From: an uncultured cyanobacterium | GTDB lineage: Bacteria; Cyanobacteriota; Cyanobacteriia; Cyanobacteriales; Nostocaceae | Assembly: GCA_963706595.1 (NCBI GenBank) | Contig: OY970166.1 | Coordinates: forward strand, 5,472,001-5,536,000 | DNA length: 64,000 bases | Direction of reading: 5' to 3' | In this document: positions 12,001 through 29,074 of the stretch, piece after piece | Numbering within the stretch: position 1 is the stretch's first letter | Layout: every line of letters begins with the position of its first letter | Made by a program: the position numbers

Positions 12001-15000
12001 AGCTATAAAAGCCATTACTAACGCCTTTAAAGTACCTACACGCTTCTTTACCTCAGATAAACTAGAAAATTTGATATCACAAGGTTATAGCCCCGCCCAA
12101 GCTATAGCCCTCACCGCAACTGGTTCGTCTCCCTTATCCTCCTCATCTCCCCACCTAGCACTCGCAATTGCTCCCACACCCATTGACCCCAACACTATCG
12201 GTCAAGCACAGGGACGGTTAGCAATTATTGGCACTGGGCCAGGTGGTTCACAGTGGATGTCTCCAGAGGTGACAGAAATACTCAAATCTGCAACTGATTT
12301 AGTGGGTTACAAAACATACATAAATTTAATTGGTTCTCTAGCTGATGGTAAACAACTGCACGAGTCCGACAACCGTGAAGAAATTGCACGGGCGACAATG
12401 GCGCTGGATTTGGCAGCAGAGGGGCGATATGTAGCAGTAGTTTCTTCTGGTGATCCTGGGATATATGCAATGGCTGCGGCTGTATTTGAGGTATGCGATC
12501 GCGAAGCGCTCCGTAGGAATCGCAACCCCAAACCGGAGTGGGATAGTATAGATATTCATGTTGCACCAGGGATATCAGCCATGCAAGCGGCGGCTGCAAG
12601 TATTGGTGCGCCTTTGGGACATGACTTCTGCGCGATATCACTGTCTGATATTTTAAAACCTTGGTCAATTATCGAACAACGCATTGCTGCGGCTGCTGAA
12701 GCTGACTTTGCGATCGCCTTTTATAATCCTGTGTCCAAAGAGCGCACTTGGCAACTAGCAGCAGCGAAAAATATTTTACTGCAACATAGAACACCAGACA
12801 CCCCAGTAGTATTAGCCAGAAATCTCGGCAGACCAGGGCAGATGGTGAAGGTAATCAAACTGAACGAATTAACACCAGATTCAGCCGATATGCGGACAGT
12901 GATTCTAGTTGGTTCCAGCCAAACCCGAACAATTCAGCGCAGTGATGGAACTGTTGCGGTTTATACGCCACGACGGTACTAGGAATATAGCTTTTGCCAA
13001 TAGTTTTAGCACACAGCAGATTTGACAAAAGAATTACCAGATGACGAATTCACCACTTTTCCCACACAGAGCGAAAATATCGGATCATGACGTAGATTTT
13101 TATGGTCATTTATATCTTCATAGCCCATGATTAATCCATATACATCTTATTCTTATCATTGTTATTCCCTACTACTAAGTCTTGGAGTGTTAACCTCGTA
13201 ATGGCGTGATTCATCATTACGAGGTTAACTGTCGTACTGTTTTCTTCTGCAAAGCCACTAAGACTCTGAAGCCGTTACACTGTTATTTCCTACTCAGGGT
13301 TTTTTCCTTGAGCAGTGTAATCTCCATGTTGTTGGATTAGTTTTGCCACTACTCCTGTCCAACCTGTTTGATGACTAGCCCCAATTCCCGCACCATTATC
13401 TCCATGAAAATATTCATAGAAGAGAATGTATTGATTCCAATTGGGGTCATCTTGAAACTTTTTAGTGCTTCCATAAACAGGTCGCTCACTTTGACCTTCT
13501 GTTTTTGGCAAGAAAATATTGATCAATCTTTGAGAAATTTCAGTAGACACTTCCCAGAGGTTCATCATCTTGCCTGAACCAGTCGGATATTCTACTTTGA
13601 AATCATCTCCTAAATAACGATGAAATTTTTGGAGTGATTCAATAATCAAGAAATTCACAGGCATCCAAATCGGACCACGCCAATTAGAATTGCCACCAAA
13701 TAGACCAAATCTCGATTCTCCTGGTTCGTATTCTACTAAAGGTTGCTCGAAACTGCCATCTTCCATTCTGATTTTAAAAGGTAAGAGATAAGGATGGGGT
13801 GGCTCGTGTGATTTAGATAAAGCTCGAATGCCATATTGTCCTAAAAATTCAGATTCATCGAGCATTCTTTTGAGAATTAATTTCAGTCTTGCAGGGTTGA
13901 CTAGGGATAAAGCTAATCCTCCTTCCATGAAATTACTGGTTGTGTTATCGAAGTAAATATTCTGGTTTTCGGTCAAATCTTTACGGTTCTTGAGGAACCA
14001 ATCCGCCCTTTTTTTGAAGTCAGAAGTCAAATATTTGTCTAGTGTTTCCTGATCAATCGCTTCCACTGCAAATAGAGGAATAAGTCCTACCATAGAACGG
14101 ACTTTCATCGAGAAAGAAAAGGGATCATTTCCTCCCTCTATGGCATTAGCAGGAAGTTTCAAAATGTCATAGAAAAAGCCATCCTTATCATCCCAAACAT
14201 CAACATCATTTCCTCCCAGCTTGTTCAGAGCTTCGGCAATCAACAAAAAGTGCTGGAAGTATTTTGAGGCCATATCGTCATAAACTTTTGAATTTGTATG
14301 GGTTTTGGCTAACTCTGTTGCCATCTTCAACAAGTTGAGACAAAACATTCCCATCCAGCTAGTACCATCTGATTGCTCAATACTAGCACCGGCAATTTTC
14401 AAATTACTGCGGTCAAAAACCCCAATATTATCTAACCCCAGGAAACCGCCTCCAAACAGATTGTTTCCATCTACATCTTTGCGGTTTATCCACCAAGTAA
14501 AGTAGAGGGATAATTTCTGAAATAGTTGTTCGAGGAATCCTCCGTCTGCATTGCCATACATTTTCTCTTCTATTTTATAAACCCGCCAAGCTGCCCAGGC
14601 ATGAACTGGAGGATTTACGTCGCTAAAGTTCCACTCATAGGCTGGTATTTGACCGTTAGGGTGCATAAACCATTCTCTGGTGAAGAGATATAATTGCTTT
14701 TTAGCAAATTCTGGGTCAATTAAGGCTAGAGGGATGGTGTGAAATGCCAAGTCCCAAGCAGCAAACCAAGGATATTCCCATTTGTCAGGCATGGAGATGA
14801 TATCTTCGTTAAACAGGTGAGTCCACTCACTGTTTCTACCAGAGTTTTTGCGTTGCGCTGGTGGTGGTGCGCCTGGGTCGCCATTGATCCAATCTTGCAC
14901 AACATAGTGGAAAAATTGCTTACTCCATAACATCCCTGCAAAGGCTTGTCGTTGGACGTTACGCATTTCAACTGGTAATTCTTCGCTGGGGGTGACTGCT

Positions 15001-27000: not shown

Positions 27001-29074
27001 TAAAACTCGCTTTCCCTGTTCACTAAGTTGTTTGGCAACAATGGCTCCAGCTACTCCCGCTCCGACTATGACTACATCGTAAAAGGTTTGAGAAACAGTC
27101 TCACAAGTGACTAATTTTATCGTAGTCCGACTTTGGCTCATATATTACTCCTTAGCACGTATTTAATTGACCCAATGGTGTCAGGAACTTTCCCGTCAGT
27201 AATGTATCAAGCATCAATGTGGTTAGTCAACACTTAGTAGATAATTGTTTTATACACTTGATTGTAAAGGATTTGTGGCTCAACAATGTATTTAATATTG
27301 GGTTAATATCAGTAAATACTTGGTTAATACTTAGTAAATGTTCCGTAATTTTTCTGAATAAATCTGTTGAAATATAAGCAAATTGTGCGATTTTAACGGG
27401 ATTATTGAATATTTCATAAGCTTTATTGATATTTTAGTGGTAATTAGTAATATTTAGTAATATTTAGTAATATTATGCCAAAAATCTTAGTATTCTGCAT
27501 GAAAAAACAGAAGATAAGCTAAAGATAAGAGTAATCTTCGGAAATATGTGTATTGTTCAGTATTTGCAGTTAGATTTCTCTCTGCCAGTGAACTATAATG
27601 TCAGTATTATTGCTATAAAGTTAGAAGCAACTTGAAGATTAGTATAGTAACCGGATTTAATGTATGAGTTAATTGACGTAGAGATAGTGGGAAAAGCAGG
27701 ATAGATAACTACTGAGTTTGGTATGGACACACCACACCAGCTATAAATAACCAAATAGGAGTCCTAATATGTTACAAAATTTTTCTGAAGAAACAAGAGC
27801 CTTATTCCGTAAAGAAATACAAGAATATGGATTTATGAAGGATGAATTAGTTGGTAGAGACATTGACAGGGAAGTTTACGGAGTGAATATTGCCTGTGCT
27901 TGGCCTCTTCCTACGGAAATCAGGGAAATTTATGAGGAAATGTCTGAGAAATTGCAAGAATTAGAATGTGCTTATATATATCCATATACCCAAACACACA
28001 TTACAATCGTAACAGTTATTAACTTTAAAAAAAGGCTGAATAAAATTAAAAAATACTTAGATGCTGAGATATTAAAACTGTTAAAGATGAGAATAGAAAA
28101 TATAGTACAGCACAAGCCAATTAAAATATTTATTGATTCTCCAGTATTATTAAGGTCTGCTGCATTCTTCCCCGTATACAATCCTGGTGGAGAAATATAT
28201 GAAATACGAAAAGAAGCTCTGAATATTTTAAAAGGTGATAACAGAGATTATGATTTAGATACGCCAATATCCATTCATTCAACAATTTTACGCTTCCAGG
28301 AAGTTCCTACAGATAGTGAAAAGTTTCTTCATAGATTTGAAGAAATTACCAAAAATTTCTCTGTGGTGGAAGGAATAGTGAGGGAAGTGTATGTAACGGA
28401 GGAGTTAAAGCCTTACATGAAACAGGGAAGTATTTTAGAAAAAATTGACTGCGGAAACTTGGCTTTGTAAAGCTCTAATTTTTCATGACTGAAGATAATA
28501 ATTAAATCTAGTTCGCAGTTGTTCTATTGTTAAATCTTCAATCCAATACTCTATTAAAGCATGACCAAACGCCCAAGCATTGCGATCTGGTGTAGAAGGG
28601 TTTTCTAACAACTTAGTGACAGAATAGGGATATAACCTAAGCATAAAAACAAACCCCCTCATGATAGTAATGAGAGGGTTTATTTTTATTCAATTGATAA
28701 ACCTGGCATCGAGCTATTTTTGCAGAGGGCTACCCCAAAACTATCGTCGCCGCAGCAGCGTTTCACCTCTGAGTTCGGGAAGGGATCAGTGTGGTTCCAC
28801 CGCGCAATAAACACCAGGAAAGAATTCAAAATTCAAAATTCAAAATTCAAAATAGAATCAGGAATTTTCAATTCGAGGGTTTCAGAAACCCTGAAGGCTG
28901 CACAGTAACGCGAAATAATGAGCAATTCACACAAGCAATGATCTGAGGTCAAGCCCTCGGTCTGTTAGTACACCTCAGCTTCATACATTACTGTACTTCC
29001 ACTTAGAGCCTATAAACGGGTGTTCTGCCCGTGACCTTACCTACTCACGTAGTGAGAGCACTCATCTTGAGGTG

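What a model noticed while it worked through the whole genome (the two positions that open the first line are those of the whole stretch)
13290..27141. Conserved cyanobacterial oxidative sugar operon: FAD sugar dehydrogenase with a ferritin-like partner, IolE, epimerase, [...]
g04923-g04933 form a conserved operon in which a glucose/fructose-dehydrogenase-type flavoprotein and its unannotated gamma subunit (g04930) sit with a ferritin-like protein and no cytochrome c subunit. They are followed by a pentapeptide protein, an inosose dehydratase, a SnoaL-type protein, a ketose epimerase, a radical copper oxidase, a DyP peroxidase and a GH63 hydrolase: an undescribed oxidative sugar or glycoside pathway.
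Evidence so far: Ferritin-like gene in 12 of 201 genomes of the order. In those 12 loci: flavoprotein, ferritin-like, g04930 and pentapeptide in 12; IolE in 11; epimerase and SnoaL in 9; copper oxidase and DyP in 8; GH63 in 6. The flavoprotein's best PDB hits are B. cepacia FAD-GDH and fructose dehydrogenase alpha subunits (E 4e-56, 2e-46; call 184); the g04930 model's top match is the FAD-GDH gamma subunit (Z 7.0, rmsd 2.6, 83 aligned; next unrelated 4.2; call 207). No CxxCH protein in any of the 12 loci. g04928 passes the IolE cut-off.
(Added by a program. Inside this text positions count along the whole contig: contig position 5,472,001 is position 1 of the stretch shown here. "Call 12" and the like, gene names such as g00115 and contig names such as C1 are that model's own, and its searches are not shown. 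The text may have been shortened before it was handed on; [...] marks where a part breaks off. The agent that wrote the report below was given it as the finding of a first reader that could run no searches.)

Follow-up and report, generated by a model that had tools for sequence, protein, structure and literature searches.

The report
Bacterial glucose oxidation-dehydration gene cassette
A ten-gene cluster, whose core also occurs in rhizobia and other bacteria, probably turns glucose released from glycogen into a reactive keto-sugar and then a small pyranone compound, as some fungi do to make antibiotics, but with an untested flavoenzyme paired with a ferritin-like metal protein.

Summary
The operon is real; all ten genes match the families named. 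The flavoprotein frameshift is probably an assembly error. It is not cyanobacteria-specific: glucose-releasing hydrolase, flavoprotein, ferritin-like protein, small subunit, IolE-like protein and epimerase (or AUDH) recur in Rhizobium, Sinorhizobium, Pseudoalteromonas, Persicobacter and metagenomes. Best substrate clue: seven cassette loci carry the propeller of aldos-2-ulose dehydratase (AUDH), never together with the epimerase. This points to glucose to glucosone to a dehydrated pyranone (0.5; no chemistry shown). The flavoprotein keeps the 3Fe-4S cysteines but has lost the Tat signal, inter-subunit disulfide and cytochrome; the ferritin-like protein keeps five metal ligands and is fused to the small subunit in 6 of 8 longer proteins. 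That it is the electron acceptor is still inference. The probable orthologous cluster alr1576-alr1586 is in print as co-induced, function unknown (PMC7797909). This scan noted the same system before on other DNA (e1-5139513, e1-5139514, e1-2997123).

The parts
25284..27141 (-). FAD/3Fe-4S sugar dehydrogenase catalytic (alpha) subunit, FAD-GDH/FDH type; one-base frameshift at 25493-25495, probably an assembly error; no export signal
   Evidence: (C262, C268, C272, H120, H546, N589 invariant in 42 relatives; Q263 in place of Cys213)
24107..25222 (-). Ferritin-like protein PF12902 (3HL1 fold) with putative dimetal ligands E26, E59, H62, E226, H242; proposed electron sink or peroxide-handling subunit
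   Evidence: (3HL1 Z 25.7, rmsd 2.6, 263 aligned; next 10.9); fusions
23551..24039 (-). Probable small (gamma) subunit without Tat signal or cysteine
22827..23507 (-). Pentapeptide repeat protein with signal-peptide-like N-terminus; seen only in cyanobacterial-type loci; fused to gamma in L080/L081
21312..22427 (-). IolE-like keto-sugar dehydratase of a cassette-specific clade; signal-peptide-like N-terminus in cyanobacteria only
   Evidence: (17 of 19 cyanobacterial, 0 of 22 others)
20796..21188 (-). SnoaL/DUF4440 (NTF2-fold) protein, role unknown
19629..20654 (-). Ketose-3-epimerase-like TIM barrel, orthologue of structure 2QW5; replaced by an AUDH propeller in some cassettes
   Evidence: (2QW5 E 1e-179; tagatose epimerases about 1e-7)
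17611..19575 (-). Radical copper oxidase (galactose oxidase/GlxA-like) with C141, Y195, Y455, H456, H594 and a signal-peptide-like N-terminus
16149..17633 (-). DyP peroxidase, orthologue of Alr1585 (AnaPX); match starts at residue 19; no export signal
   Evidence: 5C2I E 3e-230
13290..16097 (-). GH63/MGH1-like glycoside hydrolase; replaced or joined elsewhere by GH15, GH133 or GH5 enzymes

Best explanation
A mobile accessory pathway that converts stored glucan into an oxidised, dehydrated sugar product. Step 1 (inferred): a glycoside hydrolase frees glucose. Step 2 (inferred): a cytoplasmic FAD/3Fe-4S dehydrogenase (alpha plus gamma) oxidises it, most likely at C2 to glucosone, and passes electrons through the 3Fe-4S cluster to the dimetal ferritin-like subunit, which discharges them on O2 or H2O2 in place of a cytochrome c. 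Step 3 (inferred): the IolE-like enzyme and the epimerase-like enzyme (or an AUDH propeller in its place) enolise the 2-keto-sugar at C3 and remove water, giving a 4-deoxy-2,3-diulose and then a pyranone of the kojic acid/cortalcerone class. Step 4: lineage-specific tailoring, by copper radical oxidase plus DyP in cyanobacteria and by an MBL-fold hydrolase plus a 2-keto-acid decarboxylase in rhizobia and others. Shown: gene content, order, co-inheritance, motifs, gene swaps and fusions. Not shown: substrate, regiochemistry, product, binding, electron path. Confidence is about 0.5 for the 2-keto-sugar pathway and about 0.45, separately, for the ferritin-like protein as electron acceptor.
For: AUDH propeller (E 5e-61 to 4A7K; PF22301; four histidines kept in 5 of 5 full-length cassette copies) in 7 distinct cassette loci. 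It is exclusive with the epimerase: 0 of 41 epimerase-bearing locus rows have AUDH, 0 of 4 long AUDH loci have the epimerase, and the epimerase was not found genome-wide in two such genomes or on the plasmid. AUDH genes of 7 other cyanobacteria sit with a cupin-like gene and a GH31, the layout of the anhydrofructose route to a 2-ulose. Unrelated glucose-releasing hydrolases (GH63, GH15 with or without CBM20, GH133, GH5) fill the same slot. The 44 cassette IolEs are one side of a 100/98 branch against 7 iol-operon IolEs, with the invariant acidic/histidine residues kept and pocket-region changes; no iolD, iolB or iolG over cut-off in 5 of 5 cassette genomes. Three unrelated peroxidase types (DyP, FMP-type heme protein, An_peroxidase) and, once, DJ-1 and glyoxalase genes accompany it. 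No Tat motif in 84 gamma proteins and no Cys in 78 of 78 C-terminal motifs, so a cytochrome c is out of reach; ferritin-gamma fusions in 6 of 8 longer proteins, 5 label changes on the tree. Kojic acid has been made from glucose via glucosone chemo-enzymatically (PMC11051239, passage).
Against: The flavoprotein's nearest solved relatives oxidise C1 of glucose and C5 of fructose (positions recalled); pyranose 2-oxidases score only 1e-9 or weaker, so C2 is not read from the enzyme itself. This genome has no AUDH, and the epimerase is not a known dehydratase. The IolE passes the inosose dehydratase cut-off and is as close to a Bacillus iol-operon IolE (44%) as to rhizobial cassette copies. Several cyanobacterial loci keep only the four-gene core, and three such genomes gave no IolE hit. 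Gamma also fuses to SnoaL and pentapeptide neighbours, one fusion (P0125) looks like a frame artefact and P0092 has a broken tail, so fusion may reflect adjacency. The sixth ferritin ligand (E239) varies (100 of 120). In cyanobacteria the steps fall in different compartments and no transporter is conserved. Related genomes are not independent.
Confidence: 0.5

Rival explanations
1. Cyclitol route: the flavoprotein oxidises an inositol to an inosose, the IolE dehydrates it to trihydroxycyclohexanedione, and the product goes to a polyhydroxybenzene or quinone that the peroxidase oxidises.
For: IolE passes TIGR04379 in the window and in 6 of 6 relatives tested; PDB IolE hits 1e-58 and 1e-52; the epimerase's best NCBIfam model is IolO (E 2e-12, far below cut-off).
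Against: No iolD/iolB/iolG over cut-off in 5 genomes; separate clade; linked hydrolases are glucan/glucoside types, including CBM20 glucoamylases and debranching enzymes; the AUDH swap.
Confidence: 0.15
2. 3-keto-glycoside (Gul/Lgd/Lac-type) non-hydrolytic glycoside breakdown: C3 oxidation, elimination by one TIM barrel, hydration by the other.
For: Same general anatomy, a GMC with small subunit plus two TIM barrels (recalled; the paper tried was not held); weak hit of the IolE to a 2-hydroxy-3-keto-glucal hydratase (8RO4, E 1.5e-7).
Against: The cassette already has hydrolases; no NAD(P)H reductase or sugar transporter among the conserved or annotated neighbours I examined; the IolE is about 50 orders of magnitude closer to true IolE than to 8RO4.
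Confidence: 0.13
3. C1 oxidation feeding a non-phosphorylative catabolic or detoxifying route: lactone, lactonase, keto-acid, ThDP decarboxylase.
For: Top structural relative is FAD-GDH; the non-cyanobacterial tail is an MBL-fold hydrolase plus an indolepyruvate/pyruvate-decarboxylase-type enzyme, in 4 of 11 plasmid loci and 8-9 of 32 long metagenome loci; some loci have a second GMC/gamma pair.
Against: The tail is absent from all 29 cyanobacterial loci tallied; patchy spread (10 of 401 genomes of the phylum) and frequent decay suit an accessory product better than carbon uptake.
Confidence: 0.12
4. Envelope-glycan modification or H2O2 supply, as suggested for alr1576-alr1586 and as in Streptomyces GlxA/DtpA.
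For: Exported CRO, IolE, pentapeptide and glucoamylase in cyanobacteria; co-induction in a septal mutant with cell-wall changes (PMC7797909); GlxA/DtpA precedent (PMC8197335).
Against: No glycosyltransferase among the conserved cassette genes; the core has no export signals outside cyanobacteria; CRO and DyP are optional.
Confidence: 0.1

Closest known systems
FAD-dependent dehydrogenase heterotrimers: Burkholderia cepacia FAD-GDH (6A2U, 8HDD) and Gluconobacter fructose dehydrogenase (7W2J)
   Same: Alpha subunit homology over the whole chain (E 8e-69 and 7e-59 for an intact relative); three Fe-S cysteines, His105, His476 and Asn519 equivalents kept; a probable small subunit.
   Different: No Tat signal, no Cys213/Cys152 disulfide, no tri-heme cytochrome c, which define the known complex (PMC9727119, passages); a ferritin-like gene between alpha and gamma; linked to dehydratases.
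Fungal pyranose 2-oxidase plus aldos-2-ulose dehydratase (glucose to cortalcerone) and the anhydrofructose pathway (AUDH 4A7K)
   Same: AUDH propeller inside 7 cassette loci with four histidines kept; glucan-derived glucose; one oxidation followed by dehydration.
   Different: The oxidant is not a pyranose oxidase; no cupin-like partner in cassette loci; AUDH is absent here, with an epimerase-like barrel and an IolE-like enzyme instead.
myo-Inositol catabolism IolE (3CNY, 9ZMU; TIGR04379)
   Same: Passes the cut-off; invariant residues shared.
   Different: Separate clade with pocket-region changes, exported in cyanobacteria, no iolD/B/G.
PF12902 ferritin-like proteins (Caulobacter CC_0557, 3HL1; C-terminal domain of VioB)
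   Same: Same fold (Z 25.7) and putative dimetal ligands.
   Different: No function is given for 3HL1 in what I saw; here it is tied to a sugar flavoprotein, while distant relatives sit beside 610-650-aa proteins, one with a faint VioB match.
Anabaena PCC 7120 cluster alr1576-alr1586 (AnaPX = Alr1585)
   Same: Probably the same cassette: Alr1585 is the DyP orthologue, and the paper's tables label alr1576 a CH-OH oxidoreductase, alr1580 iolE-like, alr1583 an epimerase, alr1586 GH15.
   Different: Ends in a GH15 instead of GH63; I did not fetch its DNA; only co-induction is reported, no pathway.
Streptomyces GlxA/DtpA radical copper oxidase and DyP pair
   Same: Adjacent CRO and DyP (PMC8197335 passage).
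   Different: CRO far below the GlxA cut-off (175 against 800); DyP is of the AnaPX type with no Tat signal; no cellulose synthase.

Membership tests
FAD-GDH/FDH-type heterotrimer | Catalytic subunit with FAD site and three-cysteine 3Fe-4S motif | tested here: met
   C262, C268, C272, H120, H546, N589 invariant in 42 of 42 rows; roles of the His/Asn residues are recalled
FAD-GDH/FDH-type heterotrimer | Small subunit homologous to gamma | tested here: inconclusive
   PF12318 below cut-off in 4 of 18; Atlas 0.95-0.96 with low recognition value; own model unusable. Probable.
FAD-GDH/FDH-type heterotrimer | Tat hitch-hiker signal on the small subunit | tested here: not met
   0 of 84 with a twin-arginine motif; alignment
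FAD-GDH/FDH-type heterotrimer | alpha Cys213 - gamma Cys152 disulfide | tested here: not met
   Q263 invariant in 42; no Cys in 78 gamma motifs
FAD-GDH/FDH-type heterotrimer | Tri-heme cytochrome c subunit | tested here: not met
   none in 72 locus rows; no frame with three CxxCH in this genome, one with two
Pyranose 2-oxidase / AUDH cortalcerone pathway | Pyranose 2-oxidase | tested here: not met
   POx hits 1e-9 or weaker against 8e-69 for FAD-GDH
Pyranose 2-oxidase / AUDH cortalcerone pathway | AUDH propeller | tested here: not met
   absent from this genome; present in 7 related cassette loci
Pyranose 2-oxidase / AUDH cortalcerone pathway | Glucosone formed and dehydrated | not testable with these tools
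   needs enzyme assays
IolE of inositol catabolism | TIGR04379 cut-off and invariant residues | tested here: met
IolE of inositol catabolism | iolG, iolD and iolB in the genome | tested here: not met
   0 of 5 genomes over cut-off for each; controls ring in 3-4 of 14
PF12902 ferritin-like | Family score, fold and carboxylate/histidine ligands | tested here: met
   (E26, E59, H62, E226, H242 in 117-119 of 120 and 83-85 of 85)
PF12902 ferritin-like | Metal identity and redox activity | not testable with these tools
   needs metal analysis and EPR
Radical copper oxidase | Cys-Tyr cofactor and copper ligands | tested here: met
   C141, Y195, Y455/H456, H594 align with GlxA motifs; roles recalled; GlxA equivalog cut-off not reached
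3-keto-glycoside (Gul/Lgd) pathway | Eliminase, hydratase and NAD(P)-reductase orthologues | tested here: inconclusive
   only a weak 8RO4 hit; no direct comparison with the characterised eliminases was run

The most novel reading that the evidence does not exclude
A new class of three-subunit cytoplasmic sugar oxidase (FAD to 3Fe-4S to a ferritin-like dimetal centre to O2) starts a bacterial glycogen-to-pyrone pathway that makes kojic acid or a close relative with one oxidation and two enzymatic dehydrations. In cyanobacteria the steps are split across the membrane (exported dehydratase, copper oxidase and glucoamylase; cytoplasmic flavoprotein, epimerase and peroxidase), so the product forms when cells are damaged: a lysis-activated chemical defence.
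Probability: 0.2. Interest if true: 0.85.

Novelty: new variant of a known kind. Interest (0 to 1): 0.62.

Why it matters
It would give a function to a cluster that is probably present in the model strain Anabaena PCC 7120 and is common on rhizobial plasmids, and to three proteins solved without a known physiological role (3HL1, 2QW5, AnaPX). It would show how FAD/3Fe-4S dehydrogenases of the glucose-sensor family work with no cytochrome, and supply defined enzymes for glucose to pyranone conversion, a route still unresolved even for fungal kojic acid (PMC11051239, passage). It also flags many database 'iolE' genes as probably mislabelled. Every step can be tested with purified proteins.

Tried and rejected
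Complex prediction of alpha plus ferritin-like protein: no answer (0.24 and 0.02, mark 0.32), no evidence either way; gamma was not included. Single-sequence model of gamma failed (pLDDT 43.7) and was not searched; the gamma profile found no PDB relative. Promoter and terminator scan was at chance level (36 against 37.3; 6 against 12.4). Rfam found only the flanking 5S rRNA. No sequencing run held half of the window's words, so the frameshift could not be checked against own reads; RNA contigs of relatives cover several genes but show no single transcript. No manganese catalase or other named family stood out behind 3HL1 in fold searches. The GH31 next to AUDH in other cyanobacteria could not be called a lyase: maltase-glucoamylase scored above glucan lyase. 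Paper searches showed no description of the pathway in their listings; one search found the one paper on the cluster. Most subscription papers are not held, and bioRxiv supplements were closed. Rejected: cyanobacteria-only system; ordinary inositol catabolism; a true pseudogene as the default reading of the frameshift.
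Full report
Observation. The ten genes are present on the minus strand at 13290-27141 with gaps of -23 to 399 bp and match the families named. The flavoprotein is split by one extra base at 25493-25495; contigs of related organisms in three runs lack that base and close relatives encode 618 aa. Of 70 other conserved loci tested in this assembly 3 are frameshifted, one a triosephosphate isomerase (named from recall), so an assembly error is likelier than a pseudogene; no run of this strain was available.

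Distribution. The ferritin-like gene is in 21 of 251 genomes of the order, 16 at 58% identity or more, and in 10 of 401 of the phylum at E 1e-60. In the 15 relatives' loci: GMC, gamma and pentapeptide 14, IolE 13, SnoaL 11, epimerase 11, CRO 9, DyP 9, GH63 7, GH15 2, GH5 1, AUDH 1. A close IolE is in 15 of those 16 genomes and in none of the other 235; five further genomes have only a 28-29% hit. It is not confined to cyanobacteria: 172 plasmid records match, 114 from Rhizobium. Rhizobium etli, Pararhizobium, Sinorhizobium, Rhizobium WSM4643 and Pseudoalteromonas carry GH15, GMC, ferritin-like, gamma, IolE and epimerase; Persicobacter carries GMC, ferritin-like, gamma, AUDH, GH133, GH63, IolE. 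Five more distant plasmid hits (29-35%) lack IolE and epimerase. Of 80 metagenome loci I tallied the 32 of 8 kb or more: GMC 29, gamma 24, IolE 19, epimerase 17 (three of them distant, 21-27%), GH15 15, GH63 6, GH133 5, MBL 9, ThDP enzyme 8.

Oxidation module. An intact relative aligns with B. cepacia FAD-GDH (E 8e-69) and fructose dehydrogenase (7e-59); pyranose oxidases score 1e-9 or weaker. In 42 sequences the equivalents of Cys212, Cys218, Cys222, His105, His476 and Asn519 are invariant, while Cys213 is always Gln. The known complex has a Tat hitch-hiker subunit, a Cys213-Cys152 disulfide and a tri-heme cytochrome next to the 3Fe-4S cluster (PMC9727119, passages). Here 0 of 84 small subunits have a Tat motif, 0 of 78 have the cysteine, no cytochrome gene lies in 72 locus rows, and this genome has no frame with three CxxCH. 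The enzyme is therefore most likely cytoplasmic and needs another acceptor. The small subunit's family is probable, not proven. The ferritin-like protein folds like 3HL1 (pLDDT 85.9; Z 25.7, next 10.9) and keeps E26, E59, H62, E226 and H242, while E239 varies. Six of 8 longer gamma-containing proteins are ferritin-gamma fusions, needing 5 changes on a FastTree tree; but one looks like a frame artefact, and gamma also fuses to SnoaL and pentapeptide neighbours, so this is moderate evidence. An electron-sink role (0.45) competes with a catalase-like or assembly role.

Substrate. Four lines point to glucose and a 2-keto-sugar. (a) Unrelated glucose-releasing hydrolases fill one slot, among them starch-binding glucoamylases and debranching enzymes. 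(b) An AUDH propeller (E 5e-61 to 4A7K) lies in 7 distinct cassette loci, with the four histidines that I recall as its active site kept in 5 of 5 full-length copies. AUDH and the epimerase never co-occur: 0 of 41 and 0 of 4 rows, not dereplicated, and the epimerase was not found in two AUDH genomes or on the plasmid. (c) In 7 other cyanobacteria AUDH sits with a cupin-like gene and a GH31, and cassette copies lack that partner; whether the GH31 is a lyase is open. (d) 44 cassette IolEs form one side of a 100/98 branch against 7 IolEs from inositol operons, with invariant residues shared and T75, E134, P135 and F141 differing (14 partial or redundant loci were left out), and 5 of 5 cassette genomes lack iolD, iolB and iolG over cut-off. 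IolE, ketose 3-epimerases and AUDH all take the proton next to a C2 carbonyl (established mechanisms, recalled), and glucosone in its pyranose form resembles scyllo-inosose (inference). Glucose minus two hydrogens and two waters is C6H6O4, the formula of kojic acid, which has been made via glucosone (PMC11051239, passages); the fungal pyranose oxidase/AUDH route to cortalcerone I saw as a passage and a reference title (PMC11650716), and the antibacterial anhydrofructose products as a passage (PMC12441222). Against: the enzyme's nearest relatives act on C1 and C5, and this genome has no AUDH.

Tail and compartments. Cyanobacteria add a pentapeptide protein, SnoaL, an intact-looking copper radical oxidase and a DyP that is the orthologue of Alr1585; others add an MBL hydrolase and a 2-keto-acid decarboxylase, an FMP-type heme protein or an animal-type peroxidase. 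By a simple hydropathy score (not a signal-peptide predictor), N-terminal hydrophobic stretches occur on 17 of 19 cyanobacterial IolEs and 0 of 22 others, on 13 of 15 CROs and 2 of 2 cyanobacterial AUDHs, and not on ferritin-like protein, gamma, epimerase, DyP or GH63. Either an intermediate crosses the membrane or the pathway closes on lysis. Patchy spread and frequent decay (broken or deleted genes in L024, L029, L037, L050, L168 and in runs X7, X8, X14) suit an accessory, perhaps defensive, product.

What is known. PMC7797909 (passages; supplement rows) reports alr1576-alr1586 as co-induced 2.4- to 7.2-fold in a septal triple mutant and suggests polysaccharide or sugar modification; orthology rests on Alr1585 and the paper's labels, not on DNA that I fetched. 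The epimerase has a solved orthologue, 2QW5. GlxA/DtpA is a precedent for a CRO-DyP pair (PMC8197335, passages). PMC8023676 (passages) only places AUDH among VCBS propellers. The listings of searches showed no description of the pathway or of the ferritin-like partner; most subscription papers are not searched. Earlier notes of this scan describe the same core (e1-2997123) and the same AUDH-linked cluster (e1-5139513, e1-5139514); I found the AUDH link, before seeing the latter two, and count them as no support.

Verdict. A real, widely spread cassette that works most likely as a bacterial counterpart of the fungal glucose-glucosone-pyranone pathway with a new oxidation module. It is not a member of the FAD-GDH heterotrimer family or of inositol catabolism by the defining features tested. 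New variant of a known kind; interest 0.62.

Noticed in passing
L159-L165 (G019, G171, G120, G187, G145, G067, G052): Three-gene set of AUDH propeller, a 237-280-aa cupin-like gene and a GH31 of 1030-1120 aa in 7 cyanobacteria without the cassette: a probable split anhydrofructose (microthecin-type) pathway; broken in two of them.
   Followed up: partly
window 22495-22625: About 130-bp dispersed repeat between the pentapeptide and IolE genes; 9 further BLAST hits in the genome at 81-92%.
   Followed up: partly
L056:3222-5266, L062:3108-5161: In two Rhizobium plasmids the cassette lies next to an AHL synthase, a LuxR and a small HTH repressor gene; possible density control. Not seen in the other genera.
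   Followed up: partly
L057, L089, L094, L119, L147 (and L130): A second gamma/GMC pair beside the first, suggesting two successive oxidations.
   Followed up: no
L080:11104-12111, L081:2800-3819; L026:6773-7741; L038:14296-16770: Fusions: gamma-pentapeptide with the hydrophobic stretch internal (would anchor gamma at the membrane), gamma-SnoaL, and a LamG domain on the flavoprotein.
   Followed up: partly
window 27769-28470 (+): Divergent 233-aa ORF with no Pfam or NCBIfam hit, also upstream of the cassette in L046; an rRNA region follows (5S at 28701-28818).
   Followed up: no
L039, L064, L066: Distant ferritin-like genes follow a 610-650-aa gene without Pfam hit (one faint VioB match, E 3e-5); near ebo-type genes in L064 and L040.
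   Followed up: partly
G000:C1 near 22021-22744, 1172787-1174078, 2429495-2430932: Three conserved genes frameshifted in this assembly, a sign of indel errors.
   Followed up: yes
runs X7, X8, X14 laid on window 16505-22319: Related organisms have deleted the middle of the cassette (part of DyP, CRO, epimerase, SnoaL, part or most of IolE).
   Followed up: no
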